Positions 7,928 to 23,246 are shown, counted from the stretch's first letter. The stretch is DNA of 64,000 nt from Beijerinckiaceae bacterium (GCA_947453205.1 CANGFT010000002.1:55884-119883); one strand, 5' to 3'. Notes: a model not told the origin generated them from the sequence alone. Made by a program: numbers and translations.

Positions 7928-8704
7928 ATGGCCCCCATCAACTCAAAGCGCTGGCTCGACCAAATCTGCGCCGCGGCGCTCGCAATGCTTGTCTCCATGG
8001 GCGCCGGGGCGCTTCAGGCCCAGACCACCGCCCCGCAGGGTGAGGAAGAAGAGGTCCGCTGGACCCTGCCCCCGCCAACCCACCTGCTGACTACGCCGCC
8101 GCAGCCCGCCGCCGCCGCGAGCCCAGCCGAAGCGCCGCAACCCTTCGGCGGCCCGCCCGTGATGCGCGCCCAGACGCAAGCCGCGCCGCAGGAGGCAGCG
8201 CCCGAAGCCGCCTCCATGCTCGCGCCGTCCGTCGCGCCGCCGCCGCCTTTGCTGGCCCCGGCCGCGACGCCCTATTTTGCGCCCCAACCAGCCCCCGTCG
8301 CGGCGACGCAGCCCGCCCCGGCGCCCGAGCCTGCGCCCGTCCAGGCGGCGGCCGAGCCCAAAAAGGGGAAAAAATCGGCAGCCAAAACCACGACGCCTGC
8401 GGCCAAATCTGCGGAGACCAAAGCCGTCGCCGCCAAGCCCGTCGCCGCAAAGCCTGCAGCCGGCGCCAAGCCTGTGGCCAACACGCCCGCAGCCGCGCCG
8501 AAACCAGCGGTCGCCGCCAAGCCTGCGGCGGTCAAGACAGCCAAGACCGCAAAACCTGCGGCCACGACACGCCCCCCCGAACCCGTGCCGCCGCCGCCCT
8601 CCATGACGCAGAAAGAGCCGGAGGACAGCCGCATCCCCGTCATTTCAACGGTCATGGATGGCGTGAGCACGGTCGGCCGCAAGATCGGCGGCCTCTTCGA
8701 CTAG
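7928..8704 (+). CDS. Hypothetical exported Pro/Ala/Lys-rich low-complexity protein
   Basis: Signal-like N-terminus, AAKP/KPAA repeats, amphipathic C-terminus. Confidence 0.6.
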   Translation: MAPINSKRWLDQICAAALAMLVSMGAGALQAQTTAPQGEEEEVRWTLPPPTHLLTTPPQPAAAASPAEAPQPFGGPPVMRAQTQAAPQEAAPEAASMLAPSVAPPPPLLAPAATPYFAPQPAPVAATQPAPAPEPAPVQAAAEPKKGKKSAAKTTTPAAKSAETKAVAAKPVAAKPAAGAKPVANTPAAAPKPAVAAKPAAVKTAKTAKPAATTRPPEPVPPPPSMTQKEPEDSRIPVISTVMDGVSTVGRKIGGLFD

Positions 8705-9426: not shown

Positions 9427-9816
9427 ATGGAGGGCCGGACGATGGTGATCGTATTTTACGTGATTCTCGTCTGGCTCAAGGTCATCGTGGGCAACTCTCT
9501 TGCGCTTCTCTGGCTCTGGGTGGCCCGCGACCGCGGCGTGAGCGGCCTGCGCGCAAGGCTCAACGCTGTGGCGGTCCTGCTGGTCTGGGCCGCCCCATGG
9601 GCCGTCTTCCTCATCATTCAGGCCGACCTCCATCAGGGCCATTGCGGCCTTCGACAGGGCGTCCACGATTGCGGCTTGGCCGCGTTTCTCTGGGGCCGCC
9701 TGCGCTGGGTCCGGGCAGGCCTGTTGCTGGACATCTGCATGATCGCAGGCGTCTTCGCGCTGATGGCGGCCTCGCGCGTCTCCCACGAAGAGTCCCGCGC
9801 CCTGCGCGCGAACTGA
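9427..9816 (+). CDS. Hypothetical small multi-pass membrane protein
   Basis: 129-aa ORF with three hydrophobic segments. Confidence 0.45.
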   Translation: MEGRTMVIVFYVILVWLKVIVGNSLALLWLWVARDRGVSGLRARLNAVAVLLVWAAPWAVFLIIQADLHQGHCGLRQGVHDCGLAAFLWGRLRWVRAGLLLDICMIAGVFALMAASRVSHEESRALRAN

Positions 9817-9937
9817 TCCGCAACGGCCTGCGGCCCTCAATCCGGTTTACCGTCCCCCTTCGACATGCGAATAAGGCTGATGCGGCTGGCCAACGACGCC
9901 AGCCCGAGCCGATTCAAGAATGCAAGGAGGATGCGCC

Positions 9938-11209
9938 GTGCTGACGCGTGAGCAAAATGAACGCCTCGTCCGGGTTGGGCCGGGAACGCCCGCAGGCGAG
10001 CTTTTCCGCCGCTATTGGCAGCCCGCCGTGCTCAGCGAGGAAGTCCCCGAAAAGGATGGCGCCCCCGTGCGCGTGCGCCTGCTCGGCGAGGATCTTCTGG
10101 CGTTCCGCGACACGGACGGGGTTGTGGGCCTCGTCGACGCCTACTGCCCCCACCGGCTCGCGCCCATGTTCTTCGGCCGCAACGAGGAATGCGGCCTGCG
10201 CTGCGCCTATCACGGCTGGAAATTCGACCGCAACGGCGACTGCATGGACATGCCGACGGAACCGGGCAACGAGGTCATGAAGCAGAAGACCAAGCTCAAG
10301 GCCTATCCCACGGTCGAGCGCGGCGGCATGGTCTGGGCCTATATGGGCCCGCCCGAGCGCAAGCCCCCGCCGCCGGACTATGAATGGACCCGCGTGCCCC
10401 ACGACTTCCTGCATGTCTCCAAGACCTACGAGGAATGCAACTATCTGCAGGCCCTGGAGGGCGGGCTCGACACCGCCCATTCCTCCTACGCCCATAACAA
10501 CAACATGGCCGCCAAGAACGATCCGCGCCTCGTCGACAAGTCGCCGCGCCTCGACGTGAACCCCACGGACTACGGCTACAACTATGTCTCGACGCGCCAG
10601 ATGGGCGGGGGCGACACCTATGTGCGCCTTTATCACTATGTCATGCCCTTCCAGCAGATGCGCGGCGGCATCCATGAATTCAGCGGCGCACGCCGCAAGG
10701 CGCCCGCCATCGACGGCCATCTATGGGTTCCGATCGATGACGAGACGACCTATGTCTACAACTGGCATCACACCTATGACGACACGACGCCGGTCGATCA
10801 GGCCCATCGCGACGCCACCGAGACCTTCTATGGCCGCGGCCCCGACGACATGATTCCCGGCACCTATCGGCTGAAGAAGAACAAGTCGAACGACTATATG
10901 ATCGACCGCAAGCTCCAGAAGGAGAAGGTCTTCACGGGCATCGTCGGCATCAACACCCAGGACTTCGCCCTGCAGGAGGGCATGGGGCCCATCGTCGACC
11001 GCACGAAGGAGCATCTGGGCTCGACCGACCGCGCCATCATCGCCATGCGCGCCATGCTGCTGCGCGCCATCGACACGGTGGAGAAGGGCGGCGACGCGCC
11101 GGGCGCCGATCCGCAGACCCATCGGGGCATGCGGCCCTTCGATAATTTCGTGAAGGCGGGCGAGGACTGGCGCGAAATCTTCGAGCCCGAGACCAAGGCC
11201 AAATGGTGA
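9938..11209 (+). CDS. Rieske non-heme iron oxygenase alpha subunit (phthalate 4,5-dioxygenase/LigXa-like)
   Basis: CPHR...CAYHG Rieske motif; EGGLDTAHSSYAH iron site; AGGAGG before a GTG start. Confidence 0.88.
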   Translation: MLTREQNERLVRVGPGTPAGELFRRYWQPAVLSEEVPEKDGAPVRVRLLGEDLLAFRDTDGVVGLVDAYCPHRLAPMFFGRNEECGLRCAYHGWKFDRNGDCMDMPTEPGNEVMKQKTKLKAYPTVERGGMVWAYMGPPERKPPPPDYEWTRVPHDFLHVSKTYEECNYLQALEGGLDTAHSSYAHNNNMAAKNDPRLVDKSPRLDVNPTDYGYNYVSTRQMGGGDTYVRLYHYVMPFQQMRGGIHEFSGARRKAPAIDGHLWVPIDDETTYVYNWHHTYDDTTPVDQAHRDATETFYGRGPDDMIPGTYRLKKNKSNDYMIDRKLQKEKVFTGIVGINTQDFALQEGMGPIVDRTKEHLGSTDRAIIAMRAMLLRAIDTVEKGGDAPGADPQTHRGMRPFDNFVKAGEDWREIFEPETKAKW

Positions 11210-12564
11210 CGCAAGACAAAGCCGAGACGCAAGACAGCATCACCCGCGCCATCGTCGATTTCGCCTTCGCGAGCTACGCGCGCCCCCTCGACGCCCCGCG
11301 ACGCGAGGCCCTGACGGCGCGCGTGATGGACATGCTGGGCTGCGCCATCGCGGCCTGCGAGGACGAGGAGGTGCGCCGCATCGCCCGCGCCATCGGCTTC
11401 ACGGGCGAAGCGGGCCCCTGCACCGCCCTGTCGCTGGGGCGCGGGAGCGTGGACTCCGCCGCCTTCCTCAATGGCCTCATGGTGCGCTTCCATGACTGGA
11501 ACGACACCTATGTGGGCAAGAACGGCGGCCATCCCTCGGACATCATCGCCGCAGCCATGGCGGCGGGCGAGGAGAGCCATCGCAGCGGCGATGAAGTCCT
11601 GCGCGCCATCGCGACGGGCCAGCATCTCATGCTCGACATGTGCGACGGCTCCAATGCGCTGGCGCGGGGCTGGGATCACGCGACCTATGTGGGCATAGCC
11701 GCCACGGTCGCGGTCGGCCTGCTGCGCGGCCTTGACCGCAAGCAGTTCGCCCATGCGCTGTCCATGATGACGGCGGCGAACAACATGCTGCTGGCGCGCT
11801 CCGCCAAGGTCTCGGCCTGGCGCAGCCTCGCCTCGCCGCAGGCCCTGCGCAACGCCCTCTTCGTGACGGCGCTGGCCAAGGCGGATGTCTCCGGCCCCGA
11901 TCCCGTCTTCGAGGGCAAGCTCGGGTTCCTCGACGTCGTCTGCGGCGATCTCGACCTTGCGCTCGACCCCACGCGCGAGCGCAGCGGCGACACCCATCTC
12001 AAGCGCTTTCCGGCGGTCTTCCACGCACAGGCGCCCTGCGAGATCGCGCTCGCCATGCGCGAGGAGATCGGCCCCGAACTGCTGTCGCAAATCGAGGCGG
12101 TCGAGGTCGCGACCCACGCCTTCGCCATCCATTGGGCAGGCACGATCCCCGCGCTCTGGGAGCCACAGAACCGCGAGACCGCCGACCACAGCATCCCCTT
12201 CATGACGGCGCTCGCCCTTCTGCGCGGGCAGGTGCATCACCACGACATCGAGGCGGGGATCCAGGACGAGGCCGTGCGCGTACTCACAAGGAAGGTTCGC
12301 GTCGTCGAGGATCCCGCCTATTCCGCCGCCTGGCCCAAACAGGCGCCGGCGCGGATCACGGTTGCGGCGGGCGGGCGCAAGTTTGAAAAGGCGCTGATCG
12401 CGGGCCGTGGCCATGCGGCGCGGCCCCTGAGCCCTGACCAGCGGGCTGACAAGCTCATCGACAACGCGACGCCCGTGATCGGCGCGGCGCGCGCGCAGGC
12501 CTGGGCGAAGACTTTGGCGGGCTTCGCCGACATGGCGGATATTTCAGCGGCCCTCCAGCCCTGA
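11203..12564 (+). CDS. MmgE/PrpD family protein
   Basis: AAFLNGLMVRFHDWNDTY..GGHPSD, GWDH, RETADHSIPF and RGH..RP; overlaps the Rieske stop codon. Confidence 0.88.
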   Translation: MVTQDKAETQDSITRAIVDFAFASYARPLDAPRREALTARVMDMLGCAIAACEDEEVRRIARAIGFTGEAGPCTALSLGRGSVDSAAFLNGLMVRFHDWNDTYVGKNGGHPSDIIAAAMAAGEESHRSGDEVLRAIATGQHLMLDMCDGSNALARGWDHATYVGIAATVAVGLLRGLDRKQFAHALSMMTAANNMLLARSAKVSAWRSLASPQALRNALFVTALAKADVSGPDPVFEGKLGFLDVVCGDLDLALDPTRERSGDTHLKRFPAVFHAQAPCEIALAMREEIGPELLSQIEAVEVATHAFAIHWAGTIPALWEPQNRETADHSIPFMTALALLRGQVHHHDIEAGIQDEAVRVLTRKVRVVEDPAYSAAWPKQAPARITVAAGGRKFEKALIAGRGHAARPLSPDQRADKLIDNATPVIGAARAQAWAKTLAGFADMADISAALQP

Positions 12565-12606
12565 CCAGGCAAACCGGCGCATACGGCGCCCAAGGAGATT
12601 GACGAC

Positions 12607-13854
12607 GTGTTGCGAACCAGCGTTTTCGGAGGAGCGGCGAGCGCCCTGCGGGTGCCCATCTTCCGCCGCTACTTCCTCGGCCATTTCATGGCGAGCATCG
12701 GACGCTGGATGTACCGCATGTCCATCGGCTGGCTCGCCTATGACCTCACGGAGTCGACGGTCTGGCTTGGCGCGGTGGCCTTCGCGGACCTTGTTCCCAG
12801 CGCCCTCCTGACGATCTTCGCCGGCGCCATCACCGACCGTTTCGGCTATATGCGGATCATCCGCCACAGCCTCGTCGCGGTGATCCTGCTCTCGACCCTG
12901 CTCGGCGGCCTCGTCATCACCCGCACGATCACAGTCGAATGGCTGCTGCTGATCGCCTTGCTGGCGGGGTCAGCCGAGTCCCTGGGGCAACCGGCGCGCC
13001 TCGCCATCGTCAATGCGCTTGTGCCCAAACATGACCTTTCCGCTGCCATCGCGCTGGGATCGACATCCTTCAACGCCTCGCGCATCGTGGGCCCGAGCAT
13101 TGCGGGCCTGCTCATTCAGGTGACCGGCCCCGGCGTCGTCATGCTGCTGTGCGCGCTGGCGGTCTTCTATTTCTGGCTGGTCGTGCGCCGCATCAATCTT
13201 GAGGAAAAGAGCAAGCCGGCCGCCAAGGGGGATTCGCTCTGGCGCGATACGCTGGCGGGCTTCACCTATGTGCTGGACCATCGCGGCATCCGCTTCGTGA
13301 TGATCCTGCTCACGGCGACGAGCCTGCTGGTGCGGCCGGTGATCGAACTGCTTCCCAGCATCGCACGCCGGATTTTTGAATCCGAGGCGACGGGGCTTTC
13401 GATGATGCTGTCAGGGATCGGCGTCGGCGCCGTCACGGCCAGTCTCGTTCTGGCGCGGCGGGGACAGACGCAGGGCCTCACAAAGGTTCTGGTCTGGTCC
13501 ACCTTCGGCACGGGGCTGAGCGTCTGGGCGGCGCTTCACATGCCCAGCATCCAGCTTGCGGCGGTCGCCTTCTGCTTCATGGGCGTCTTCATGCTCTGCG
13601 GCAATGTCTCAGCGCAGACACTGGTGCAGAACAGCGTCTCCACCGAGATGCGCGCCCGCGTGCTCGGGCTCTTCATCGTCTTCGGCCATGGCCTGCCGGC
13701 GCTGGGCGCGCTGGTGCAGGGCTGGCTCGCGACCTTCTTCGGCCTGCCCGCCGCCGTCGGCGGCAGCGCCATCCTCATGTTGGCCTTCTGGATCTGGGCC
13801 ATGTTCCGCCAGCGCGCCATGGTCGGCCAGCTGGAGATGGGCAGCGACGCCTAG
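12607..13854 (+). CDS. MFS transporter (DHA3/MFS_3-like)
   Basis: About 12 hydrophobic segments; AGAITDRFG, QPARLAIV and EMRARVLG. Confidence 0.85.
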   Translation: MLRTSVFGGAASALRVPIFRRYFLGHFMASIGRWMYRMSIGWLAYDLTESTVWLGAVAFADLVPSALLTIFAGAITDRFGYMRIIRHSLVAVILLSTLLGGLVITRTITVEWLLLIALLAGSAESLGQPARLAIVNALVPKHDLSAAIALGSTSFNASRIVGPSIAGLLIQVTGPGVVMLLCALAVFYFWLVVRRINLEEKSKPAAKGDSLWRDTLAGFTYVLDHRGIRFVMILLTATSLLVRPVIELLPSIARRIFESEATGLSMMLSGIGVGAVTASLVLARRGQTQGLTKVLVWSTFGTGLSVWAALHMPSIQLAAVAFCFMGVFMLCGNVSAQTLVQNSVSTEMRARVLGLFIVFGHGLPALGALVQGWLATFFGLPAAVGGSAILMLAFWIWAMFRQRAMVGQLEMGSDA

Positions 13855-15188
13855 CCTTTCTTGTAGCGGCTTTCGGGGCGCGGCAGGCCCAGATGGTCGC
13901 GCAGGGTCACGCCCGTATATTCCGTGCGGAACAGGCCGCGCTTCTGCAATTCGGGCACGACCATGTTGCAGAAGTCGACGTGCTGGCCGGGCATATAGGG
14001 CGGCAGCACGCAGAAGCCGTCGCAGGCCCTGCTCGTGAACCACTCCTCCATATAGTCCGCGACCTTTTTGGGGCTGCCGTGGATGGAGTTCTTGCCGCGC
14101 GCGCCCGCGCAACGCGCGCCAAGCTGGCGGATGGTGAGGTTCTCGCGGCGGGCCATGGAGACGATGGAATCGTAATGGCCCTTGCTGACGTTGGTGCCCG
14201 GCAGGGGATCGGGCAGCGGCTCGTCGAGCGGATAGGATGAGAGATCGAGCCCGCCCAGCATGGTCGAGAGGATCTCACGCCCGACGATGGGATGGATGAG
14301 GTTCTGCAGACGGTCGAAATCCTCCGCCGCCTTGTCGTCGCTCTCGGCCACCACGACGCTGAGGCCCGGCAGCACCTTCAGGTGATCGGGATTGCGGTTG
14401 TAGTTCTTCTGCATGCGGCCCTTGAGGTCGTCGTAATAGGCCTTGGCTTCCGGGATGTTCAGATGGGGCGAGAAGACGGCCTCGGCGAGTTCGGCCGCAA
14501 GCTCGCGCCCCTCGTCGGAGGCGCCCGCCTGCACCTGCACCGGATAGCCCTGCGGGCAGCGGGGAATATTGAGGGGCCCGCGCACCTTGTAATGCTCGCC
14601 CTGATGGTTGAGGTAGTGCATCCGGTCCGGCTCGAAATAGAGCCCGCCCTCGACGTCGCGCACGAAAGCGTCGTCATCCCAGCTATCCCAGAGGCCATAG
14701 ACGATCTTGGCGAATTCGCGCGCGCGGCCATAGCGCTCGGCGTGATTGCCCACGCGGTCGCGGCCGAAGTTCAGGGCTTCGGCGGGCTGGGCGGAGGTGA
14801 CGAGGTTCCAGCCCGCGCGCCCGTGGCTGATATGGTCGAGCGAGGCGAATTTGCGGGCGAGGTTATAGGGCTCCTGATAGGTGGTGGAGGCGGTGGCGGT
14901 CAGGCCGATGCGCTTCGTCACCATGGCCAGAGCCGAGAGCAGGGTCAGCGGCTCGAAATGGGCGACGAACTGCACGGAGCGCGAGATGGCTTCGATATGG
15001 GCCTGGCGCGTGGCGTTGCTGTCGGCGAGGAAGATCATGTCGAACTTCGCGCGCTCGGCGGCCTGCGCCATCTCGACATAATGTTCGATGCTGACATTGG
15101 CCGCCGGCTCGGCGCGCGGATGGCGCCAGGACGCCACATGATGGCCCGTCGGGTTGAAATAGGCCGCAAGGGTCATCTGCCGCGTCAT
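13851..15188 (-). CDS. LLM-class monooxygenase, NtaA/SnaA/DszA family
   Basis: AERAKFDMIFLADS, FEPLTLLSALA, LDHISHGRAGWNLVTS, VQAGAS..GRELAAE and LRDHLGL. Confidence 0.9.
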   Translation of the reverse strand: MTRQMTLAAYFNPTGHHVASWRHPRAEPAANVSIEHYVEMAQAAERAKFDMIFLADSNATRQAHIEAISRSVQFVAHFEPLTLLSALAMVTKRIGLTATASTTYQEPYNLARKFASLDHISHGRAGWNLVTSAQPAEALNFGRDRVGNHAERYGRAREFAKIVYGLWDSWDDDAFVRDVEGGLYFEPDRMHYLNHQGEHYKVRGPLNIPRCPQGYPVQVQAGASDEGRELAAELAEAVFSPHLNIPEAKAYYDDLKGRMQKNYNRNPDHLKVLPGLSVVVAESDDKAAEDFDRLQNLIHPIVGREILSTMLGGLDLSSYPLDEPLPDPLPGTNVSKGHYDSIVSMARRENLTIRQLGARCAGARGKNSIHGSPKKVADYMEEWFTSRACDGFCVLPPYMPGQHVDFCNMVVPELQKRGLFRTEYTGVTLRDHLGLPRPESRYKKG

Positions 15189-15296
15189 GCTTGTCTCCGC
15201 TCCCTTCAATCTGTCCGCCACCGAGATGGCATGGCGCGCCCGTCATGCCAAGCGCCTTCGCCGTGCGTCTTGATGTGAGTCAAAACGCCCCGCGCC

Positions 15297-16167: not shown

Positions 16168-17214
16168 TCACATGCCCAAAAGCCTGGCGAATCTCTGCCG
16201 GATGTCGCGCGGGGCCTTTGCGGCCTCGGCGATGAGCGAACGGATGGCCTCGCCGTCGATGGGGCTCGTCAGGATGCCAGCCTTCAGGATCTCCGCGCGG
16301 AACTCCTCATTGGTGGCCATGGCCATGAAGCTCTTCGACAGAACCGCCGCCCGGTCCGCAGGCACGCCGGGAGGAGCTGCGAAGGGGAAGGCCATGAAGA
16401 AAGGCATTTCGGCGAAGTCGAGCAAGGCGAGGTCGTTCGGGTCTTTCACGAGTTCGCGTGCGGTCGGAGCGTCCGGCGCCTCGGGCATCCGCTCCTTGCG
16501 CCCGAAGACGACGAGCGGCCGGAACGCGCCTGCCCGCCATGCGTCGGCGCGCCCGACCAGAACCGCGCTCAGATCGACGACCTGCCCGTCAAGCTCGCCG
16601 CGCTCCATCGCCAGCCAGACTTCGGACACGCCGGGAAAGCCTCTGACCAGCCCGACGCGCGCCTTCAGCATGTCGCGGGCCATCAGGCCGAAGACGATGT
16701 TCGTCGCCCCCGCCGCCGTTCCGCCGAGCTGGACCGGCGGCTCCTGCGCCAGCAGATCAGCGAAGGTTTTGGCCTTATGCGCCTTGTTGACGATGAGCAT
16801 GTAGCCGTCGTCGCGGTAGGAGGTGAGGCTGCCGAGCCAGGTCAGCTTCAGGGGATCGAAGTTGACGTTGGGATCCTCGAGCAGGGCCAGTTGCGGCAGG
16901 GCCCGGTTCATGGCGACGAGGGTGAGGCCTTCGCGCTCCATGCCGTTGGCCATGCGGTTGGCCAGCGCCAGCCCCCCGCCGCCCGGCTGGTTCTGGACCA
17001 CGATGGTCGGATTGCCCGGAACGAACTTGCCGAGATAGCGCGCCACGATTCGCGCGCCGATGTCGTAATAGCCGCCCGGCGAGGATCCCACGAGGATGGT
17101 GACCGTCTTGCCCGCGTAGAAGCCGCCGTCGGTTTGCGCTGATGCGGCGCCGGCGGCGCACAGCAGCGACAGAGCCGCCAGCCATCGGCCAGCCTCACGA
17201 AACAAGCGATCCAT
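16168..17214 (-). CDS. Bug/TctC tripartite tricarboxylate transporter substrate-binding protein
   Basis: FYAGKTVTILVGSSPGGYYD, VVQNQPGGGG and AMERGELDG. Confidence 0.88.
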   Translation of the reverse strand: MDRLFREAGRWLAALSLLCAAGAASAQTDGGFYAGKTVTILVGSSPGGYYDIGARIVARYLGKFVPGNPTIVVQNQPGGGGLALANRMANGMEREGLTLVAMNRALPQLALLEDPNVNFDPLKLTWLGSLTSYRDDGYMLIVNKAHKAKTFADLLAQEPPVQLGGTAAGATNIVFGLMARDMLKARVGLVRGFPGVSEVWLAMERGELDGQVVDLSAVLVGRADAWRAGAFRPLVVFGRKERMPEAPDAPTARELVKDPNDLALLDFAEMPFFMAFPFAAPPGVPADRAAVLSKSFMAMATNEEFRAEILKAGILTSPIDGEAIRSLIAEAAKAPRDIRQRFARLLGM

Positions 17215-17754
17215 TCCAATTCCTCCCGATTATGGGTCAAACCTACCACAGGCCCGCCGCCCCGCAACTTGGCCCATCGCGACCGCTTCCCATAAAGCCG
17301 ATCCGCGCCTATTCTGCCCTGCAAGAACGGTCCAGCAGGGCGAACAGCGGAGGAAAGCATGAAGATCACCCATGGGATCGCGTCTCTTGGCCGGGGCCTC
17401 GCCCTCGCAGGACTGATGCTGACCGCTGGCGGCGCGCAGGCGCAGGAGCCCCCGGATTTCTACCGCAACAAGACGATCCAGCTGATCGTGCCCTTCTCGC
17501 CCGGCGGCATCTACGACCTGACCTCGCGCATCCTCATCCGCTACATGCCCGAGTTCATTCCCGGCCGTCCGCAGATGGTGGTTCAGAACCAGCCGGGCGG
17601 CGGCGGCATCACCGGCGCCAACCGGCTCGCCAGCGCGGTTGAGAAAGACGGCCTCACCATCGCCGCCATCAGCCGCGGCATTCCCCAGCTCGCCATGGTG
17701 GGCGACCCCAACGTCACCTTCGATCCCCTGAAGCTGACCTGGCTCGGCAGCCTC
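16825..17754. repeat. Inverted repeat pair (37 bp identical) inside two head-to-head Bug paralogs
   Basis: CTTCGATCCCCTGAAGCTGACCTGGCTCGGCAGCCTC on the plus strand near 17718-17754 and as the reverse complement near 16825-16861. Confidence 0.8.
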
Positions 17755-18411
17755 TCCTCCTATGACAACGACGGCTATTTGCTGACGATCAACGCCTCGA
17801 ACGCCGCCAAAAGCATCGAGGACATGCGCAAGGGCAAAAGCGTGCATCTGGCGGGGGTGGGCGTCGGCGCCACCAACACCACCTTCGCCCTCATCGCGCG
17901 CGATCTCCTGGGCATGAACATCGCGGAGGTCCGCGGCTTCCCCGGCGCCAACGACATCTGGCTCGCCATGGAGCGCGGCGAGATCGACGGTCAGGTGATC
18001 GACCTCAGCGCCATCATGTCGGCCCGCCCGAACCTTTGGCGCGACGGCCAGCTGCGGGTTCTCGTCCAGTTCGCCCGCAAGACGCGCCTGCCCGGCTTGC
18101 CCGACGTGCCTGTCGCCCGTGAGCTCGTCACCAACCCGGCGGACCGCGCCCTGCTCGAATTCGCCGAAAGCCCCTTCTTCATGGCACTGCCCTTCGCCGC
18201 GCCGCCGAACATTCCGGCTGATCGTGCGAAGATCCTGAAAGACGCCTTCATGAAGGCCTCGGCGGACGCAGCCTTCAAGGCGGAGATGGAGAAATCCGGC
18301 TTCCTCATCAGCCCCATCGATGGGGATGCGGTCGCCGCCGTCATCACGGAGGCCGCCAAGACCCCTGCGGATGTGAAAGCCCGCATGGGCAAGCTGATCC
18401 TGCCGAACTGA
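17359..18411 (+). CDS. Bug/TctC substrate-binding protein
   Basis: FYRNKTIQLIVPFSPGGIYD, QNQPGGGG and AMERGEIDG. Confidence 0.88.
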   Translation: MKITHGIASLGRGLALAGLMLTAGGAQAQEPPDFYRNKTIQLIVPFSPGGIYDLTSRILIRYMPEFIPGRPQMVVQNQPGGGGITGANRLASAVEKDGLTIAAISRGIPQLAMVGDPNVTFDPLKLTWLGSLSSYDNDGYLLTINASNAAKSIEDMRKGKSVHLAGVGVGATNTTFALIARDLLGMNIAEVRGFPGANDIWLAMERGEIDGQVIDLSAIMSARPNLWRDGQLRVLVQFARKTRLPGLPDVPVARELVTNPADRALLEFAESPFFMALPFAAPPNIPADRAKILKDAFMKASADAAFKAEMEKSGFLISPIDGDAVAAVITEAAKTPADVKARMGKLILPN

Positions 18412-19412
18412 TGGCTTCGACGCTGCGCCGCATCTGCCTGATGCGCGGTCCCGGAACCCTGCCAAGCCAGGGCCGGGACCGGATGGACCTCACCCATTAC
18501 AACGTCAAGTTCAGCGGCAAGGGCCTCATGTCGACGCGCGACATGGTGGCCGCGATCCCCGAGGTGCACGCCATCGCCGAGATCGTCCATGACGACGATG
18601 GCCCCAACGACCAGTCGACCCACGAGCATCTGCGCCTGCTGGCGCGCAAGATGAACGGCGTGCTCGCGCGCGAGGACATCGAGGGCGTCGTCTATGTGCA
18701 GGGCACGAACACGCTGGAGGAGACCGCCTATTTCCTCAACCTCACGGTGCGCTCGGACAAGCCGCTGGTCATCGTGGGGGCGCAGCGGCCCTTCACGGGG
18801 CTCAGCACCGACGCCCATCTCAATCTCGTCAACGCCATCCGCGTCGCCGCCTGCGAAGAGGCGCGCGGCAAGGGGGTGGTCACCGTCACCAACAGCGAGA
18901 TCAACGCCGCCCGCGACGTGACGAAGACCTCGACCTTTCAGCTCCAGACCTTCCGCAGCCGCGACCTCGGCCTGCTCGGCTACGCCGATCCCGACCGCAT
19001 CGTGTTTTACCGCGCGCCCCTGCGCGGCCACACGATCCATTCGGAATTCGACATCATGGCCATCGACGCCCTGCCCCCGGTCGAGATTCTCTATCCCCAT
19101 ACCGGAACGAACCCCAGGCTCGCGCGCGCCGCCGTGGCGCTGGGCGCGCAGGGGCTGGTCATCGCCGGCATCGGCGCGGGGGCGCTCGGGCTTTTCAGCG
19201 CGGAGTTGAAGGCGCTGGCGGCGGAGGGCGTGATCGTGGCGCGCAGCGCAAGGGTGGGCGAAGGCCGGGTGCTGCCCATCGGCAACGCCCATGAGGACGG
19301 CATGGTCGCCACCGACAACCTCAACGCCCAGAAGGCCGCCGTGCTGCTGGCGCTGGCCATGACGCGCACGCGCGACCCGGCGGAGCTGCAACGCTATTTC
19401 GACGAATACTGA
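18411..19412 (+). CDS. Asparaginase/glutaminase family amidohydrolase
   Basis: QGTNTLEETAYFLNL, KPLVIVGAQRP, RDVTKTST and DNLNAQKAAVLL. Confidence 0.85.
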   Translation: MASTLRRICLMRGPGTLPSQGRDRMDLTHYNVKFSGKGLMSTRDMVAAIPEVHAIAEIVHDDDGPNDQSTHEHLRLLARKMNGVLAREDIEGVVYVQGTNTLEETAYFLNLTVRSDKPLVIVGAQRPFTGLSTDAHLNLVNAIRVAACEEARGKGVVTVTNSEINAARDVTKTSTFQLQTFRSRDLGLLGYADPDRIVFYRAPLRGHTIHSEFDIMAIDALPPVEILYPHTGTNPRLARAAVALGAQGLVIAGIGAGALGLFSAELKALAAEGVIVARSARVGEGRVLPIGNAHEDGMVATDNLNAQKAAVLLALAMTRTRDPAELQRYFDEY

Positions 19413-19422
19413 GGGAGGGACC

Positions 19423-20448
19423 ATGCGCAGATCGGTTCACGCTTTCGCCTTGCTCGCGGCGCTGGCGCCCGCAGCCGCCCTCGCCGATCCCATCGAGGAT
19501 TTCTACAAGGGCCGCACCATCGATTTCACCGTGCCGGGCTCGCCGGGCGGCGATTATGACCTGCGCGCGCGCATGGTGGCGCGGCATCTGGGCCGGCACA
19601 TCCCCGGCCAGCCCCAGATCGTCGTCCGCAACATGCCCGGAGGCATCGGCATCGCCGCAGGCAACCATCTCGCCAACGCCGCGGCGCGCGATGGCTCGGT
19701 CATCACCATCGTCTTCCAGAACATGCCGATCCTGCAGGCCATAGGCTCGCCCGGCATCCAGTTCGACGCGCGCGCCTTCAACTGGATCGGCAACACCACC
19801 GATGGCCCCAACGTCCTCAACGCCTGGCATACGACCGGCGTCACGAAGATCGAGCAGGTCTATGACAAGGAGCTTGTCGTCGGCGCCTCGGGCACGGGCT
19901 CGGGCGGCTATGTCTATCCCGCCGCCATGAACGCCCTGCTCGGCACGAAGTTCAAGATCGTCGGCGGCTATCCCGGCGGCAACGAAATCAACCTCGCCAT
20001 GGAGAAGGGCGAGGTCGGCGGGCGCGGCTCCAACTCATGGGCCTCATGGAAGAGCGGCCATCCCCACTGGATCGCCGAAAAGAAGATCCATATCCTCGTC
20101 CAGATCGCCCTCAAACGCGCCCCCGACCTGCCGGACGTTCCGCTCATGCATGAGCTTGCGAAGAACGATGAGGACCGGCAGGTGCTCCAGTTCCTGTCCT
20201 CCGACATGGGCATAGCCCGCGCCATCGCGACGACGCCGGGCGCCCCGCCCGAACGTGTCGCCGCCCTGCGGAAGGCCTTTCAGGACATGCTGCGCGACCC
20301 CGCCTTCATCGCTGAGGCCGACAAGGCGCAGATGGAGATCGCGCCCTCGACCGGCGAGGAGGCGCAGAAGGTGGCGGCCTCCATGCTCAACATGCCCGCC
20401 AATGTCATCGCCCGCGCCAAGCAGTTGATCGAGGGGCCCTCGAAATAA
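19423..20448 (+). CDS. Bug/TctC substrate-binding protein
   Basis: FYKGRTIDFTVPGSPGGDYD, VRNMPGG and GYPGGNEINLAMEKGEV. Confidence 0.88.
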   Translation: MRRSVHAFALLAALAPAAALADPIEDFYKGRTIDFTVPGSPGGDYDLRARMVARHLGRHIPGQPQIVVRNMPGGIGIAAGNHLANAAARDGSVITIVFQNMPILQAIGSPGIQFDARAFNWIGNTTDGPNVLNAWHTTGVTKIEQVYDKELVVGASGTGSGGYVYPAAMNALLGTKFKIVGGYPGGNEINLAMEKGEVGGRGSNSWASWKSGHPHWIAEKKIHILVQIALKRAPDLPDVPLMHELAKNDEDRQVLQFLSSDMGIARAIATTPGAPPERVAALRKAFQDMLRDPAFIAEADKAQMEIAPSTGEEAQKVAASMLNMPANVIARAKQLIEGPSK

Positions 20449-20457
20449 TCGGGCCGC

Positions 20458-21483
20458 TCAGCGCTCCCCCGCCGCCATCCGCTCGATCATGCCGCGCGCC
20501 AGAAAGGACGCGCGGTCGTTGATGGTGCTGACCTTGCGGGCCTCGGGGCGCTCGATCATGCGGCGCTGCTGGGCTTCGAGGATGACGAAATCCTCGTGGA
20601 AGACGTCCACCATGACCTCGCTGAACATGCGCTCGACCTGCGGATCGTCATGGGCGAAGGCGCGGCAGAAGCCGAAGAAATAATGGCAGGTCGTGTCGGT
20701 GGCAGGCGTCGGCAGGCTGATGGCGACAAGCTCGACCCGGCGCGGACTTGCGGCCAGATCGCCCTGCGGCCCGCCATAGCCCACGTCGACGCAGCCCGCG
20801 AAATTGATGGCGAGCGCGGGAGCGCGAAATTCGACGGCCGCCCAGCGGTCGGCGTTGGCCTCGAAGCCTCCTGCCTTGGCGTACATGGGCGGGGGCGGGC
20901 GATCGAGCACCCAGCGCGAGACCCGCACATGGTTTTCGCCCGTTTCGATCACTGGCGCGACCTCGGTCAGGCCGCCGCTGCCGATGGAGCTGGCGTGAAC
21001 ATAGGTCAGATGCGTGGCGTCCAGCACATTGTCGACGATGAGCCGCGCGTCGCAGGCGACCGGAACCATGGTGGGGGTGGTGAAGGTCCAGTCGGGATGA
21101 TCGCACCACCAGAGGTCCGGAATCTCTGAGGGATCGGCGCGGGCCTGATCGCCGAGCCAGATCCAGACCCAGCGCCAGCGCTCGACCACGGCGAAGGACC
21201 GCACGGCGGCGTTGGGCGGGATCGCGCTCTGACCAGGAATCTCGACGCAGGCGCCAGAGGCGTCGAAGCGATAGCCATGGTAGCCGCAGCGCAGACCATC
21301 GCCCTCGACCTTGCCGAGCGACAGGGGCAGCGACCTGTGGCAGCACTGATCCTCCAGCGCGGCCGGCGCCCCGTCGAGGCGGCGGAAAAGGACGACGTCC
21401 TCGCCGAGGATCCTGCGCGCCAGAGGCTCGCGCCCGACCTCGCTCGCCCAGGCGGCGACATACCATGCGTTGCGTGGAAACAT
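20458..21483 (-). CDS. Rieske O-demethylase oxygenase, VanA-like
   Basis: MFPRNAWYVAAW, CCHRSLPL...CGYHG, DNVLDATHLTYVH and EDFVILEAQQ. Confidence 0.88.
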   Translation of the reverse strand: MFPRNAWYVAAWASEVGREPLARRILGEDVVLFRRLDGAPAALEDQCCHRSLPLSLGKVEGDGLRCGYHGYRFDASGACVEIPGQSAIPPNAAVRSFAVVERWRWVWIWLGDQARADPSEIPDLWWCDHPDWTFTTPTMVPVACDARLIVDNVLDATHLTYVHASSIGSGGLTEVAPVIETGENHVRVSRWVLDRPPPPMYAKAGGFEANADRWAAVEFRAPALAINFAGCVDVGYGGPQGDLAASPRRVELVAISLPTPATDTTCHYFFGFCRAFAHDDPQVERMFSEVMVDVFHEDFVILEAQQRRMIERPEARKVSTINDRASFLARGMIERMAAGER

Positions 21484-21577
21484 GAGACCTCCCCAGGCTT
21501 CGTGTCGGCGCCGATGTTCAGCATCGGTCACCCCTGATGTTAGCCCCGACGGGCGCAGGGCGCCAGAACATCCCGTC

Positions 21578-22912
21578 TTATCGCCCGGGTTTCGCTTCCC
21601 TGGCCGCGGGCTTTGGCGTGCTGACAAGACCGGCCGTCAGGGTCATGCGCGCGGGCTCCCACTGGAGCTTGGCGAGTTCGGCGCGGGCCATTTTCGAATA
21701 GTCGCCGGTGATGACCATCAGCTTGCTGGCGGCGGGCTTGCTTGCCGGCTTGCTCGCGGGCTTGCCGTCCCCGGCGTCCGGCTTCGCCGCATCGAGGCTG
21801 GCGCCGAGCGCGCTGATGTCCTGCCTGTTTTTCGTCGTCCAGAAAAGCTGGTCGGCAGGCAGGGCGAGCAAGTGACGACGATCCCTGAGGACCATGAGCA
21901 CGAAGCCATCCTGCGCCAGAAAACGCGCGAAGGCGAAGGAGCGCTTCAGGCCGGCATACATTTCGGCCTGCTGACGGTTGAGATAGGCGGTGGTGCGGTC
22001 CTGCGCCATGCTGCTCTGGCGCACAAAGACCTCCGGATCTTTCGCGCCGGTCTGCTCCAGCGCCGTCGCGATCACCAGCAGATCGGCGGGCGTGTAGTTC
22101 TTGTTGCTGAGGAGCACATCCACAAGCTCGGCGTCTGCGGTCAGCGCGGTGAGCTTCTCACGGCAGTCGCGCATGATCTGCCCGGCGGTCTTGGTGCGCA
22201 GGGCCTCCTGAAGGCCCTGGGCGGCGCCGACCGATGAGGCGCTGAACATGACGGTGCGTGTGGTCGTGGCCGTGAGGTTGGGCAGGGCCGCGCCGCCGGG
22301 CACAGCCATCAAGGCGCCGCGCAGGGAGAGGCTGCCGACGCCGCGCGCCGCCGCCAGCTCCTGCAGGCGTTTGGCGAGGGGCGGGAAATCCGTATAGGGG
22401 TCGACCTGCGCCTGCGCCGCCAGATCCCGCCGCGCGCTGTCGGTGCCCAGAACCCCGCCCATGAAGCTGCCTCGCTCGGCGTCCTTGTTCTCCCCGGATG
22501 AGGAGAGCGAATCAAAGAAATTGCCGATCCCCTGCGCCGACTGTTTCGCCGTCTCGATGGGACTGATGATGAGCTGGCCGCCAAACTTGAGGGGCGCGAT
22601 CGCAGAGGAGCCGAAGGACTGGATGAACTGCCCCAGCCCGGTGTCCTCGTTCAACTGCTCGACGACGCCCCATTCATGCAGACGAACCGCCATGAGCGCA
22701 TCGCTGACGATGGTGAAGGCGCCCGCGCTGGTCTCCAGAACATATTTGCGATGGACGCCATCGATCTCGACATCCTCGGCGATGCGCCAGGACTTGCCCT
22801 GGACGCGCTCGCCCCAGATCGCCTTGGCGGAGCCCTTCACCGGCGCCTCATCGCCCAGGGCCGCCCCGGACAGAAAACCAAGAAGCAAGGCGGGGCCGCA
22901 GAGCGCTTTCAT
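21578..22912 (-). CDS. Hypothetical exported protein immediately downstream of mlaB
   Basis: Long ORF with a signal peptide and a VDPYTD motif; no family recognised; start at 22912 or 22939. Confidence 0.65.
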   Translation of the reverse strand: MKALCGPALLLGFLSGAALGDEAPVKGSAKAIWGERVQGKSWRIAEDVEIDGVHRKYVLETSAGAFTIVSDALMAVRLHEWGVVEQLNEDTGLGQFIQSFGSSAIAPLKFGGQLIISPIETAKQSAQGIGNFFDSLSSSGENKDAERGSFMGGVLGTDSARRDLAAQAQVDPYTDFPPLAKRLQELAAARGVGSLSLRGALMAVPGGAALPNLTATTTRTVMFSASSVGAAQGLQEALRTKTAGQIMRDCREKLTALTADAELVDVLLSNKNYTPADLLVIATALEQTGAKDPEVFVRQSSMAQDRTTAYLNRQQAEMYAGLKRSFAFARFLAQDGFVLMVLRDRRHLLALPADQLFWTTKNRQDISALGASLDAAKPDAGDGKPASKPASKPAASKLMVITGDYSKMARAELAKLQWEPARMTLTAGLVSTPKPAAREAKPGR

Positions 22913-22925
22913 CGGGGCCATGCGC

Positions 22926-23246
22926 TCAGGCCTCGCCATGGGGGGACAGGATGTCCTGAAGCCCGTAGAGTTCGATGATGGCGGCGAAGGCTTGCGGCAG
23001 CGGCCGCAGATCGACGCGCATATGGCTTTCGCGCGCCTGACGCAGGAGCGAGGTCATCAGGGCGAGCGCGCTGGAATCGGCTGTGGTGACGCCGCTGGCG
23101 TCCAGCACCAGCAGCCCGCCGCCATTCAGGGGCTTCAGCCTTGAACAGATGTCGCCCACGCTGTCCATGGTCAGGGCGCCGCTGAGCCTGACATGATGCG
23201 CATCGGCGCTGATGTCATGGGCGACGGCGCCGGACGCGCTGGTCAT
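22926..23246 (-). CDS. mlaB: STAS domain protein MlaB
   Basis: LSGALTMDSV, LDASGVTTADSSALALM and IIELYGL. Confidence 0.85.
   Translation of the reverse strand: MTSASGAVAHDISADAHHVRLSGALTMDSVGDICSRLKPLNGGGLLVLDASGVTTADSSALALMTSLLRQARESHMRVDLRPLPQAFAAIIELYGLQDILSPHGEA

What the first reader, a model, noticed from the sequence alone, without database searches (positions are those of the whole stretch)
9938..13854. Rieske oxygenase translationally coupled to an MmgE/PrpD enzyme and an MFS transporter
Seen: ATGGTGA start/stop overlap between the oxygenase and MmgE/PrpD; no prpB/prpC and no reductase gene adjacent. Established: MmgE/PrpD members include dehydratases, cis-aconitate decarboxylase and iminodisuccinate epimerase. 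Inference: an undescribed route in which MmgE/PrpD dehydrates or decarboxylates the oxygenase product, possibly replacing a cis-diol dehydrogenase.
Basis: partly seen in the sequence, partly recalled or inferred. Interest (0 to 1): 0.55.

Follow-up and report, generated by a model that had tools for sequence, protein, structure and literature searches.

The report
Conserved Rieske oxygenase plus PrpD-like operon
A phthalate-type oxygenase gene and an overlapping PrpD-family gene form a real two-gene unit kept together in one group of uncultured freshwater bacteria; it probably breaks down an unidentified carboxylate-rich organic acid, and the neighbouring transporter is not part of the unit.

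Summary
A Rieske oxygenase (9938-11209) ends in ATGGTGA, which holds the start of an MmgE/PrpD gene (11203-12564). An efflux-type MFS gene follows after 42 nt. No reductase, prpB or prpC is adjacent.

The oxygenase-PrpD pair and its overlap are kept in all 12 related loci examined, in at least six different flanks. PrpD identity there falls to 59%. All loci come from one genus-level lineage of Beijerinckiaceae. PrpD-linked oxygenases form one clade (100/100 support). Sister oxygenases at 58-71% identity have no PrpD partner. The MFS gene is present only in the two closest relatives.

The PrpD-like protein is not a 2-methylcitrate dehydratase: it scores 92-116 bits against cut-offs of 458-950. 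It does carry dehydratase-type motifs. In all 43 proteins of this clade the family's otherwise conserved lysine is arginine. The oxygenase is closest to RO_CH34, whose substrate is unknown, and keeps the carboxylate-binding residues of phthalate and isophthalate dioxygenases.

My reading: a two-enzyme catabolic unit for a carboxylate-rich acid. Substrate and reaction order are untested.

Earlier notes of this scan mention Rieske-PrpD neighbours in other genomes; I did not check them.

The parts
9924..9930 (+). Shine-Dalgarno-like AAGGAGG, 7 nt before the GTG start of the oxygenase gene
   Evidence: read directly from the sequence
9938..11209 (+). Alpha-only Rieske non-haem iron oxygenase, 423 aa, phthalate-dioxygenase family (Rieske + LigXa_C). 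Rieske ligands C70, H72, C89, H92. Iron ligands H181, H186, D342. Bridging D178. Carboxylate-binding face T179, S182, R197, R220, R230, H261, R300.
   Evidence: Pfam. PDB sequence matches: 7FHR 1.4e-95, 9INA 3.1e-93, 7FJL 1.3e-80. Residues mapped through those alignments and PMC8649396 / PMC12445078.
11203..11209 (+). ATGGTGA start/stop overlap, or GTGA if GTG 11206 is the start
   Evidence: A(A/G)TGGTGA is kept in 12 of 12 related loci.
11203..12564 (+). MmgE/PrpD-family protein, 453 aa, dehydratase-like branch. Carries R95-x-x-D98-x-N100-D-T, H110, W157-D158-H159 and K267, with Arg207 in place of the family's conserved Lys.
   Evidence: Pfam. NCBIfam PrpD models 92-116 bits against cut-offs 458-950. 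PDB: 1SZQ 1.3e-23, IDS epimerase 4.7e-12. Model pLDDT 77; best TM-scores 0.76 and 0.75 to PrpD/MmgE structures. Residue census.
12607..13854 (+). MFS transporter, 415 aa, DHA3/EntS-like efflux type. A local neighbour, not part of the conserved unit.
   Evidence: Pfam MFS_3 7.9e-43; TIGR00900 159 bits, below its 319.6 cut-off. Present only in the window, L014 and L016.
13851..15221 (-). NtaA/DmoA-family FMN-dependent luciferase-like monooxygenase, convergent, with a 4-nt end overlap on the MFS gene. A local neighbour only.
   Evidence: TIGR03860 550 bits, over its cut-off. Shared only with L014 and L016.

Best explanation
The oxygenase and PrpD-like genes form a translationally coupled two-enzyme catabolic unit that acts on one carboxylate-rich organic acid.

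The likely substrate carries two neighbouring carboxylates, that is, a C4 1,4-dicarboxylate substructure. It may be aromatic, heteroaromatic or alicyclic.

Proposed steps:
1. The alpha-only Rieske oxygenase draws electrons from a PDR-type reductase encoded elsewhere in the genome and hydroxylates or dihydroxylates the substrate.
2. The PrpD-like enzyme, a divergent member of the dehydratase branch of its family, converts the oxygenated product. The most likely reaction is loss of water; decarboxylation or isomerisation is less likely.

Shown here: gene identities, the overlap, its conservation, a single origin of the linkage, the non-PrpD status of the partner, and the residue signatures.

Inferred: the shared pathway (about 0.7), PrpD acting after the oxygenase as a hydro-lyase (about 0.35-0.4), and an aromatic dicarboxylate substrate (about 0.3).

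The MFS exporter and the NtaA-type monooxygenase are local neighbours, not members of the unit.
For: Linkage:
- Every PrpD-like orthologue of 59% identity or more with enough flank has the LigXa-type oxygenase directly upstream (12 loci). The overlap junction is kept in all of them.
- The flanks differ in at least six ways: infC/MFS, TctC, ALTTAQ-repeat protein, CoA-transferase/cupin, ABC transporter/Amidohydro_2, and a GerE regulator.
- Identities of the two proteins fall in parallel (Rieske 95 to 74%, PrpD 88 to 59%).
- PrpD-linked oxygenases form one clade with 100/100 support. Sister oxygenases at 58-71% identity lack PrpD.
- Both partners carry clade-specific changes. The oxygenase has H277, H278 and R291 next to the strand that carries Phe278 in PDO. 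The PrpD-like protein has H97, H159 and R207.

Chemistry:
- The oxygenase keeps PDO's carboxylate face: T179 for S179, S182, R220 for R231, R230 for R244, and probably R197 for R207. It also keeps IPDO's H257 as H261.
- All characterised MmgE/PrpD substrates share a C4 1,4-dicarboxylate backbone (PMC12290011).
- The PrpD-like protein has the R-x-x-D-x-N-D-T and D-H signatures seen in the aligned 2-methylcitrate dehydratase structures, where IDS epimerase has H-x-x-D-x-D-D and H-P. It is the most PrpD-like of the genome's paralogues. Its model superposes best on PrpD/MmgE structures.
- PDR-type reductases (FAD_binding_6, NAD_binding_1, Fer2) exist elsewhere in the genome, beside other Rieske genes.
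Against: - There are no expression, activity or substrate data.
- All linked loci come from one genus-level lineage. The conservation therefore reflects one evolutionary event plus vertical inheritance.
- No fused Rieske-PrpD protein was found (weak evidence).
- PDO's stacking phenylalanines are replaced by V273 and I338, so an aromatic substrate is uncertain.
- The closest solved oxygenase, RO_CH34, has no known substrate.
- Lys207 is essential in cis-aconitate decarboxylase. Arg at that position could mean altered or reduced catalysis.
- Nearby TctC genes carry little weight, because the genome has at least 109 of them.
- The active-site loops of the PrpD model have low confidence.
Confidence: 0.55

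Rival explanations
1. The order is reversed. The PrpD-like enzyme acts first, as an isomerase, epimerase or decarboxylase on an imported polycarboxylate, and makes the compound that the oxygenase then hydroxylates.
For: Characterised family members include epimerases, isomerases and a decarboxylase. Gene order does not fix reaction order. The Lys-to-Arg change could mark a chemistry other than dehydration.
Against: The motifs and the fold are closest to the dehydratases. The H-x-x-D-x-D-D and H-P signatures of IDS epimerase in the alignment are absent.
Confidence: 0.2
2. The two enzymes are co-transcribed but chemically unrelated. The adjacency arose once in one lineage and has simply been inherited.
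For: The pairing is restricted to one genus-level clade. Relatives of each partner function without the other: sister oxygenases are orphans, and PrpD relatives at 51% identity or less mostly lie next to TctC-like, isochorismatase or IMPase genes; one (L002/L028) follows a different, VanA-type Rieske gene. The genome is rich in both families.
Against: The overlap survived in 12 of 12 loci while the flanks were reshuffled at least six times. Both proteins acquired clade-specific changes, near the pocket or at conserved positions, on the same branch. No example of one gene of this clade without the other was seen.
Confidence: 0.17
3. The PrpD-like protein is a non-catalytic partner of the oxygenase, for example a substrate-binding, product-trapping or stabilising subunit. 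The loss of the conserved Lys would reflect this.
For: There is translational coupling without an adjacent reductase. Lys207 is Arg in all 43 clade members.
Against: The other catalytic or binding residues (D98, H110, H159, K267, H329) are invariant. Arg can still bind a carboxylate. No fusion was found. No such role is known for this family.
Confidence: 0.05
4. The PrpD-like gene is the genome's genuine 2-methylcitrate dehydratase for propionate catabolism.
For: It is the closest match to the PrpD models in this genome. One prpB-scoring gene exists on another contig.
Against: It scores 92-116 bits against cut-offs of 458-950. No prpC or acnD over cut-off was found. It has no prpBC neighbours. 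The conserved Lys is replaced. Its distribution within the genus is patchy and always tied to an oxygenase.
Confidence: 0.03

Closest known systems
RO_CH34 of Cupriavidus metallidurans (PDB 7FHR; PMC8649396)
   Same: Best sequence match among solved structures (1.4e-95, full length). It is an alpha-only phthalate-family Rieske oxygenase with the conserved Arg (R233, here R230) and His257 (here H261). Its substrate is unknown and its gene context is uninformative.
   Different: RO_CH34 has Ala182 where the window protein has Ser182, as PDO does. Its neighbours are alcohol and aldehyde dehydrogenases, not a PrpD-family gene.
Phthalate 4,5-dioxygenase PDO_KF1 (7FJL) and isophthalate dioxygenase IPDO_KF1 (9INA) of Comamonas testosteroni, with their pathways (reductase, cis-diol dehydrogenase, decarboxylase)
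   Same: Same fold and metal sites. The carboxylate-binding residues are kept: PDO S179, S182, R231 and R244, and IPDO T175, R234, H257, I246 and F249.
   Different: PDO's stacking Phe278 and Phe339 are V273 and I338 here. IPDO's V178, I294 and F333 are S182, R300 and I338 here. No reductase, cis-diol dehydrogenase or decarboxylase gene is adjacent; a PrpD-family gene overlaps instead.
2-methylcitrate dehydratase PrpD/MmgE (PDB 1SZQ, 5MUX, 5MVI, 6S62)
   Same: Closest solved relatives by sequence (1.3e-23) and by fold (TM 0.75-0.76). Shares the R-x-x-D-x-N-D-T motif, GHPSD, the shifted His in D-H, and the second conserved Lys.
   Different: Far below the equivalog cut-offs. No methylcitrate-cycle context. 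The strictly conserved Lys (hCAD K207) is Arg207.
Other characterised MmgE/PrpD enzymes: cis-aconitate decarboxylase, iminodisuccinate epimerase, (S)-(R)-methylsuccinate isomerase (PMC6789909, PMC12290011)
   Same: Same fold, and conserved Asp, His and Lys residues that hold a C4 1,4-dicarboxylate.
   Different: Weaker similarity (4.7e-12 and below). In the alignment IDS epimerase has H-x-x-D-x-D-D and H-P where this protein has R-x-x-D-x-N-D and D-H.

Membership tests
Rieske non-haem iron oxygenase, alpha-only phthalate family | Rieske [2Fe-2S] ligands CxH...CxxH | tested here: met
   C70, H72, C89, H92. Pfam Rieske 2.8e-18.
Rieske non-haem iron oxygenase, alpha-only phthalate family | 2-His-1-carboxylate iron site and bridging Asp | tested here: met
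   H181, H186 and D342 align with PDO H181, H186 and D343. D178 aligns with Asp178.
Rieske non-haem iron oxygenase, alpha-only phthalate family | No beta subunit; electrons from a PDR-type FMN/[2Fe-2S] reductase | tested here: inconclusive
   No beta-subunit or reductase gene is in the flanks. Two PDR-type reductases lie elsewhere, beside other Rieske genes. Which one serves this enzyme is unknown.
Phthalate 4,5-dioxygenase proper | Substrate residues Arg207, Arg244, Ser179, Ser182, Phe278, Phe280, Phe339 | tested here: not met
   R230, S182 and T179 are kept, and R197 possibly stands for R207. Phe278 and Phe339 are V273 and I338, and Phe280 falls in a PDO insertion.
Isophthalate dioxygenase proper | R234, H257, T175 plus V178, F249, I294, F333 | tested here: not met
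   R230, H261, T179 and F248 are kept. V178, I294 and F333 are S182, R300 and I338.
2-methylcitrate dehydratase PrpD | Score over the curated equivalog cut-off | tested here: not met
   PRK09425 116 bits against 575. TIGR02330 92 against 458. NF042438 109 against 950.
2-methylcitrate dehydratase PrpD | Methylcitrate-cycle partners prpB and prpC in the operon or genome | tested here: not met
   None is adjacent. No prpC or acnD over cut-off in the genome. One prpB-scoring gene lies on contig C5.
MmgE/PrpD superfamily | Two-domain MmgE_PrpD_N and MmgE_PrpD_C architecture and fold | tested here: met
   Pfam 5.9e-50 and 1.6e-36. Foldseek probability 1.00 to PrpD, CAD and IDS-epimerase structures.
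MmgE/PrpD superfamily | Strictly conserved Asp93, His103, Lys207, Lys272 (hCAD numbering) | tested here: not met
   D98, H110 and K267 are present. Lys207 is Arg207 in 43 of 43 clade members. It is Lys in 76 of 77 other near relatives (the exception is a truncated clade member) and in 140 of 151 sequences in the census of 50%-cluster representatives, which includes the query.
MFS DHA3 / EntS-type exporter | Family HMM over cut-off | tested here: inconclusive
   Pfam MFS_3 147 bits, over its cut-off of 27. TIGR00900 159 bits, below 319.6. EntS 91 bits, below 324.

The most novel reading that the evidence does not exclude
The pair is an undescribed two-step route. A phthalate-family oxygenase adds oxygen to a compound with two neighbouring carboxylates, for example a benzene- or pyridine-polycarboxylate or an alicyclic carboxyl-rich acid of humic lake water. 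A PrpD-type hydro-lyase with Arg in place of the family's conserved Lys then removes water (or CO2) without NAD+. It would take the place of the usual cis-diol dehydrogenase. This would be the first PrpD-family enzyme working on an oxygenase product.
Probability: 0.2. Interest if true: 0.6.

Novelty: new variant of a known kind. Interest (0 to 1): 0.38.

Why it matters
Both superfamilies are full of paralogues with no known substrate. RO_CH34, the closest solved oxygenase, is itself an orphan. Only five activities are assigned in the MmgE/PrpD family (counting fungal aconitate isomerase from my own recall).

A conserved, overlapping pair gives each protein a partner. That narrows the substrate search to compounds that both can bind, namely vicinal dicarboxylates. 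It also supplies a clean test: product mass plus 16 or plus 34, then minus 18 or minus 44.

If the PrpD-like enzyme does process the oxygenase product, it would add a new reaction type to the family and an NAD-independent variant of aromatic or alicyclic acid breakdown. The host lineage is an uncultured lake bacterium with an unusually large organic-acid repertoire: at least 109 TctC binding proteins, 21 Rieske oxygenases and 9 PrpD paralogues.

If not, this is one more uncharacterised catabolic operon.

Tried and rejected
- Genuine PrpD: rejected on HMM cut-offs and on missing prpC/acnD.
- MFS as part of the unit: rejected. It is present only in the window, L014 and L016.
- Wide distribution: the oxygenase at E<=1e-120 was found in 0 of 400 class genomes and only in the window's own genus among 250 family genomes. 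The PrpD-like protein at E<=1e-35 was found in 2 of 400 phylum genomes, neither next to a Rieske gene.
- Fused Rieske-PrpD proteins: none found. P0289 is a PrpD-PrpD tandem.
- Arg207 as a marker of Rieske linkage: not general. The only other Arg207 representative, P0380, sits in a TctA/MaoC/SDR operon without an oxygenase.
- TctC neighbours as evidence for the substrate: discounted, because the genome has at least 109 TctC genes.
- Iso_dh next to the pair in L019: it is the housekeeping NADP-isocitrate dehydrogenase.
- Cupin genes in L020 and L021: only a faint likeness to 5-aminosalicylate/gentisate dioxygenases.
- Promoter and terminator scans: nothing useful.
- Literature searches for a described Rieske-PrpD route: none found. 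The only relevant hit is a Sphingobium camptothecin gene table in which an RHD alpha subunit, an NtaA/DmoA monooxygenase and an MmgE/PrpD protein are neighbours; no function is assigned to the PrpD protein.
- A first NCBIfam scan of the other PrpD paralogues at 1e-20 returned nothing. It was replaced by the whole-genome family search.
Full report
**1. What is in the sequence**

The window has about 66% G+C, so long antisense ORFs are common and do not count as genes. Three co-directional ORFs fill the finding.

- 9938-11209: a 423-aa protein with Rieske and LigXa_C domains.
- 11203-12564: a 453-aa protein with both MmgE/PrpD domains.
- 12607-13854: a 415-aa MFS protein.

The oxygenase starts at GTG 9938, 7 nt after AAGGAGG. 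Its stop TGA (11207-11209) lies inside ATGGTGA, which holds the ATG of the next gene. The MFS gene follows after 42 nt, with its own AAGGAG.

Upstream are housekeeping genes: fumarase, pheS, transaldolase and infC. Downstream and convergent are an NtaA/DmoA-family FMN monooxygenase and an enoyl-CoA hydratase. Further on lie TctC-type binding proteins, an asparaginase and a second, VanA-type Rieske oxygenase. No reductase, beta subunit, prpB or prpC is nearby.

**2. Is the pairing more than chance?**

The host genome carries 21 Rieske alpha-type genes and 9 MmgE/PrpD paralogues. One adjacency alone would therefore prove little.

The PrpD-like protein has a discrete set of close relatives. 43 proteins share 59% identity or more. 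About 34 share 42-51%. The rest share 38% or less.

I fetched 23 genome loci and several metagenome loci. Every relative at 59% or more with enough flank has the LigXa-type oxygenase directly upstream. That makes 12 loci, counting the window and counting records of the same contig once. The junction A(A/G)TGGTGA is kept in all 12. The start is ATG or GTG with a 7-nt overlap, or the invariant GTGA.

The flanks differ in at least six ways:
- infC and a small membrane ORF upstream, MFS downstream;
- a divergent TctC gene;
- an ALTTAQ-repeat protein;
- a divergent family III CoA-transferase with a convergent cupin protein;
- Amidohydro_2 with a NitT/TauT-type ABC transporter;
- a GerE-type regulator.

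The MFS and NtaA-type genes occur only in the window and its two nearest relatives. They are not part of the unit.

**3. How far does the pairing reach?**

It does not reach far.

- The oxygenase at E<=1e-120 was found in 0 of 400 genomes drawn across the class. Among 250 genomes of the family it was found only in the window's own genus, in 5 of 8 drawn.
- The PrpD-like protein at E<=1e-35 was found in 2 of 400 genomes of the phylum, neither beside a Rieske gene.
- Within the genus, only 5 of 37 genomes sampled, counting the window's own, carry the close form.
- The record titles of the closest loci are Beijerinckiaceae and 'Rhizobiales' metagenome-assembled genomes. The isolate names suggest lake surveys, but that is my inference.
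- In a library of 1.84 billion 50%-identity representatives, the linked clade is one full-length cluster plus fragments.

A maximum-likelihood tree of the oxygenases puts all ten PrpD-linked sequences in one clade (100/100, stem 0.32). Their sisters at 58-71% identity have no PrpD neighbour in the seven cases where the flanks could be read, and sit in varied contexts. The linkage therefore arose once and has been kept since. Identities of the two partners fall in parallel.

One more distant PrpD relative (45% identity, L002/L028) follows a different, VanA-type Rieske gene with an ATGA overlap. Most of its kin instead follow TctC-like, isochorismatase or inositol-monophosphatase genes. Earlier notes of this scan mention Rieske-PrpD neighbours in other genomes. 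I could not check them.

**4. The oxygenase**

Its best solved relatives are:
- RO_CH34 of Cupriavidus metallidurans (7FHR, 1.4e-95);
- isophthalate dioxygenase (9INA, 3.1e-93);
- phthalate 4,5-dioxygenase (7FJL, 1.3e-80).

RO_CH34 has no known substrate, and its gene context gave its authors no clue (PMC8649396).

I mapped the published active-site residues through the alignments.
- Rieske ligands are C70, H72, C89 and H92. Iron ligands are H181, H186 and D342. The bridging Asp is D178.
- The carboxylate face of PDO is largely kept. Ser179 is T179. Ser182 is S182. Arg231 is R220. Arg244 is R230. R197 lies in the loop that carries PDO Arg207.
- H261 matches His257 of isophthalate dioxygenase, which binds that substrate's second carboxylate.
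- T179, R220, R230, H261 and R300 are invariant across the linked clade and its orphan sisters; S182 and R197 are kept in 26 of the 28 sequences.
- PDO's ring-stacking Phe278 and Phe339 are V273 and I338 here.
- The linked clade alone has H277, H278, R291 and T294, just after the strand that carries Phe278 in PDO.

The pocket is therefore strongly cationic and built for carboxylates. It is neither a phthalate nor an isophthalate dioxygenase by its residues, and the substrate need not be aromatic.

Two PDR-type reductases (FAD_binding_6, NAD_binding_1, Fer2) lie elsewhere in the genome beside other Rieske genes. A missing adjacent reductase is therefore unremarkable.

**5. The PrpD-like protein**

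It is not a 2-methylcitrate dehydratase. It scores 92-116 bits against equivalog cut-offs of 458-950. The genome has no prpC or acnD over cut-off.

It is, however, the most PrpD-like of the genome's paralogues: 91 bits, against 29 or less for the four others that matched the model at all. Its best solved relatives by sequence are the dehydratases, at 1.3e-23 against 4.7e-12 for IDS epimerase. An AlphaFold model (pLDDT 77, with weak active-site loops) superposes best on E. coli PrpD and B. subtilis MmgE, at TM 0.76 and 0.75, against about 0.68 for the decarboxylases and the epimerase.

It shares with the dehydratases the motif R95-x-x-D98-x-N100-D-T. IDS epimerase has H-x-x-D-x-D-D there. It also shares the D158-H159 arrangement, with the His shifted by one residue, as described for the B. 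subtilis enzyme.

Of the four residues reported as strictly conserved in cis-aconitate decarboxylase, IDS epimerase and 2-methylcitrate dehydratase (Asp93, His103, Lys207, Lys272; PMC6789909), three are present: D98, H110 and K267. The fourth is Arg207.
- It is Arg in all 43 proteins of the linked clade.
- It is Lys in 76 of 77 other near relatives. The one exception is a truncated member of the linked clade.
- In the census of 151 sequences (50%-identity representatives plus the query) it is Lys in 140. Arg occurs only in the linked clade and in one unrelated protein.
- That protein, P0380, sits in a TctA/MaoC/SDR operon without an oxygenase. Arg207 is therefore rare but not a general mark of oxygenase linkage.

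**6. Most likely mechanism**

All characterised MmgE/PrpD substrates contain a C4 1,4-dicarboxylate backbone, held by the conserved His and Lys residues (PMC12290011). The oxygenase's PDO-like face binds two neighbouring carboxylates in phthalate, and those form the same substructure. Both enzymes can thus be read as recognising one vicinal-dicarboxylate compound.

My best model: the oxygenase, fed by a reductase encoded elsewhere, hydroxylates or dihydroxylates such a compound, and the PrpD-like hydro-lyase then removes water from the product.

Two chemistries fit, and both are inference:
- vinylogous dehydration of a cis-dihydrodiol to a phenol;
- dehydration of a newly made substituted malate to a substituted maleate, as in the 2-methylcitrate reaction.

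I put the shared pathway at about 0.7, this reaction order and type at about 0.35-0.4, and an aromatic dicarboxylate substrate at about 0.3.

Some flanking genes in other genomes have a weak catabolic flavour: a dicarboxylate-type CoA-transferase, a cupin faintly like gentisate-type dioxygenases, a hydrolase like meta-cleavage-product hydrolases, and a lactonase-like Amidohydro_2. None recurs widely. TctC neighbours mean little in a genome with at least 109 TctC genes.

**7. Rivals**

- Reversed order, with PrpD first as isomerase or decarboxylase: 0.2.
- Co-transcription without shared chemistry: 0.17.
- A non-catalytic partner: 0.05.
- A genuine PrpD: 0.03.

**8. Comparison and verdict**

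Each gene is a new member of a well-known superfamily. The new element is the combination: an alpha-only phthalate-family oxygenase, translationally coupled to a dehydratase-branch PrpD protein that carries Arg for the conserved Lys. I found no description of such a route in the literature searched.

The closest mention is a gene table from a Sphingobium camptothecin-transformation region. There an RHD alpha subunit, an NtaA/DmoA monooxygenase and an MmgE/PrpD protein are neighbours, with no function assigned to the last.

I class the finding as a new variant of a known kind of catabolic operon. It is of moderate interest: real and conserved, but narrow in distribution and with substrate and chemistry still unknown.

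Noticed in passing
whole genome G000: The 4.2-Mb genome holds at least 109 TctC-family binding-protein genes, 21 Rieske alpha-type genes, 9 MmgE/PrpD paralogues and 8 PEP-mutase/isocitrate-lyase-family genes. This is an unusually large organic-acid uptake and oxygenase repertoire.
   Followed up: partly
G000 contig C5, 106134-111541: The only gene scoring over the prpB equivalog cut-off lies about 3 kb from two tandem MmgE/PrpD paralogues. The genome has no prpC, prpD or acnD over cut-off. This may be a non-canonical acid-cleavage cluster.
   Followed up: no
L002 6955-9380 (same contig as L028): A second kind of pairing: a 349-aa VanA_C-type Rieske oxygenase overlaps by ATGA a PrpD-like gene that is 45% identical to the window's and keeps Lys207. 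Related loci L033 and L036 have the same IMPase neighbour but no oxygenase.
   Followed up: partly
window 20458-21627 (-): A second alpha-only Rieske oxygenase (Rieske + VanA_C) lies 7 kb downstream, next to two TctC-like genes and an asparaginase (17359-20448).
   Followed up: no
window 13851-13854: The MFS gene and the convergent NtaA/DmoA-family monooxygenase gene overlap by 4 nt at their ends. The monooxygenase is 95% identical in L014 and L016, more conserved than the MFS protein (85-88%).
   Followed up: no
window 9427-9816 (+): A 129-aa hydrophobic ORF lies between infC and the oxygenase gene. It has no family match and is 78% identical to an ORF at the same place in L014.
   Followed up: partly
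window 7928-8704 (+), 16168-17214 (-), 21578-22939 (-): Three ORFs with coding-like composition gave no Pfam match. 16168-17214 clusters by BLAST with TctC-like genes.
   Followed up: no
P0289: A 917-aa protein made of two complete MmgE/PrpD units in tandem.
   Followed up: no
L054 1-7395: P0380 is the only Arg207 representative outside the linked clade in the 151-sequence census. It ends an operon with Amidohydro_2, NifU, two MaoC-type hydratase subunits, an SDR, two unannotated genes (328 and 149 aa) and TctA.
   Followed up: partly
L037 1710-9294: In Methylocella sp. CPCC 101449 an orphan sister oxygenase (64% identity) lies in a row with an IclR regulator, an NMT1-type ABC transporter, CobW, an Amidohydro_1 enzyme and a phosphonate-binding-like protein. 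This is a possible clue to the wider family's substrate class.
   Followed up: no
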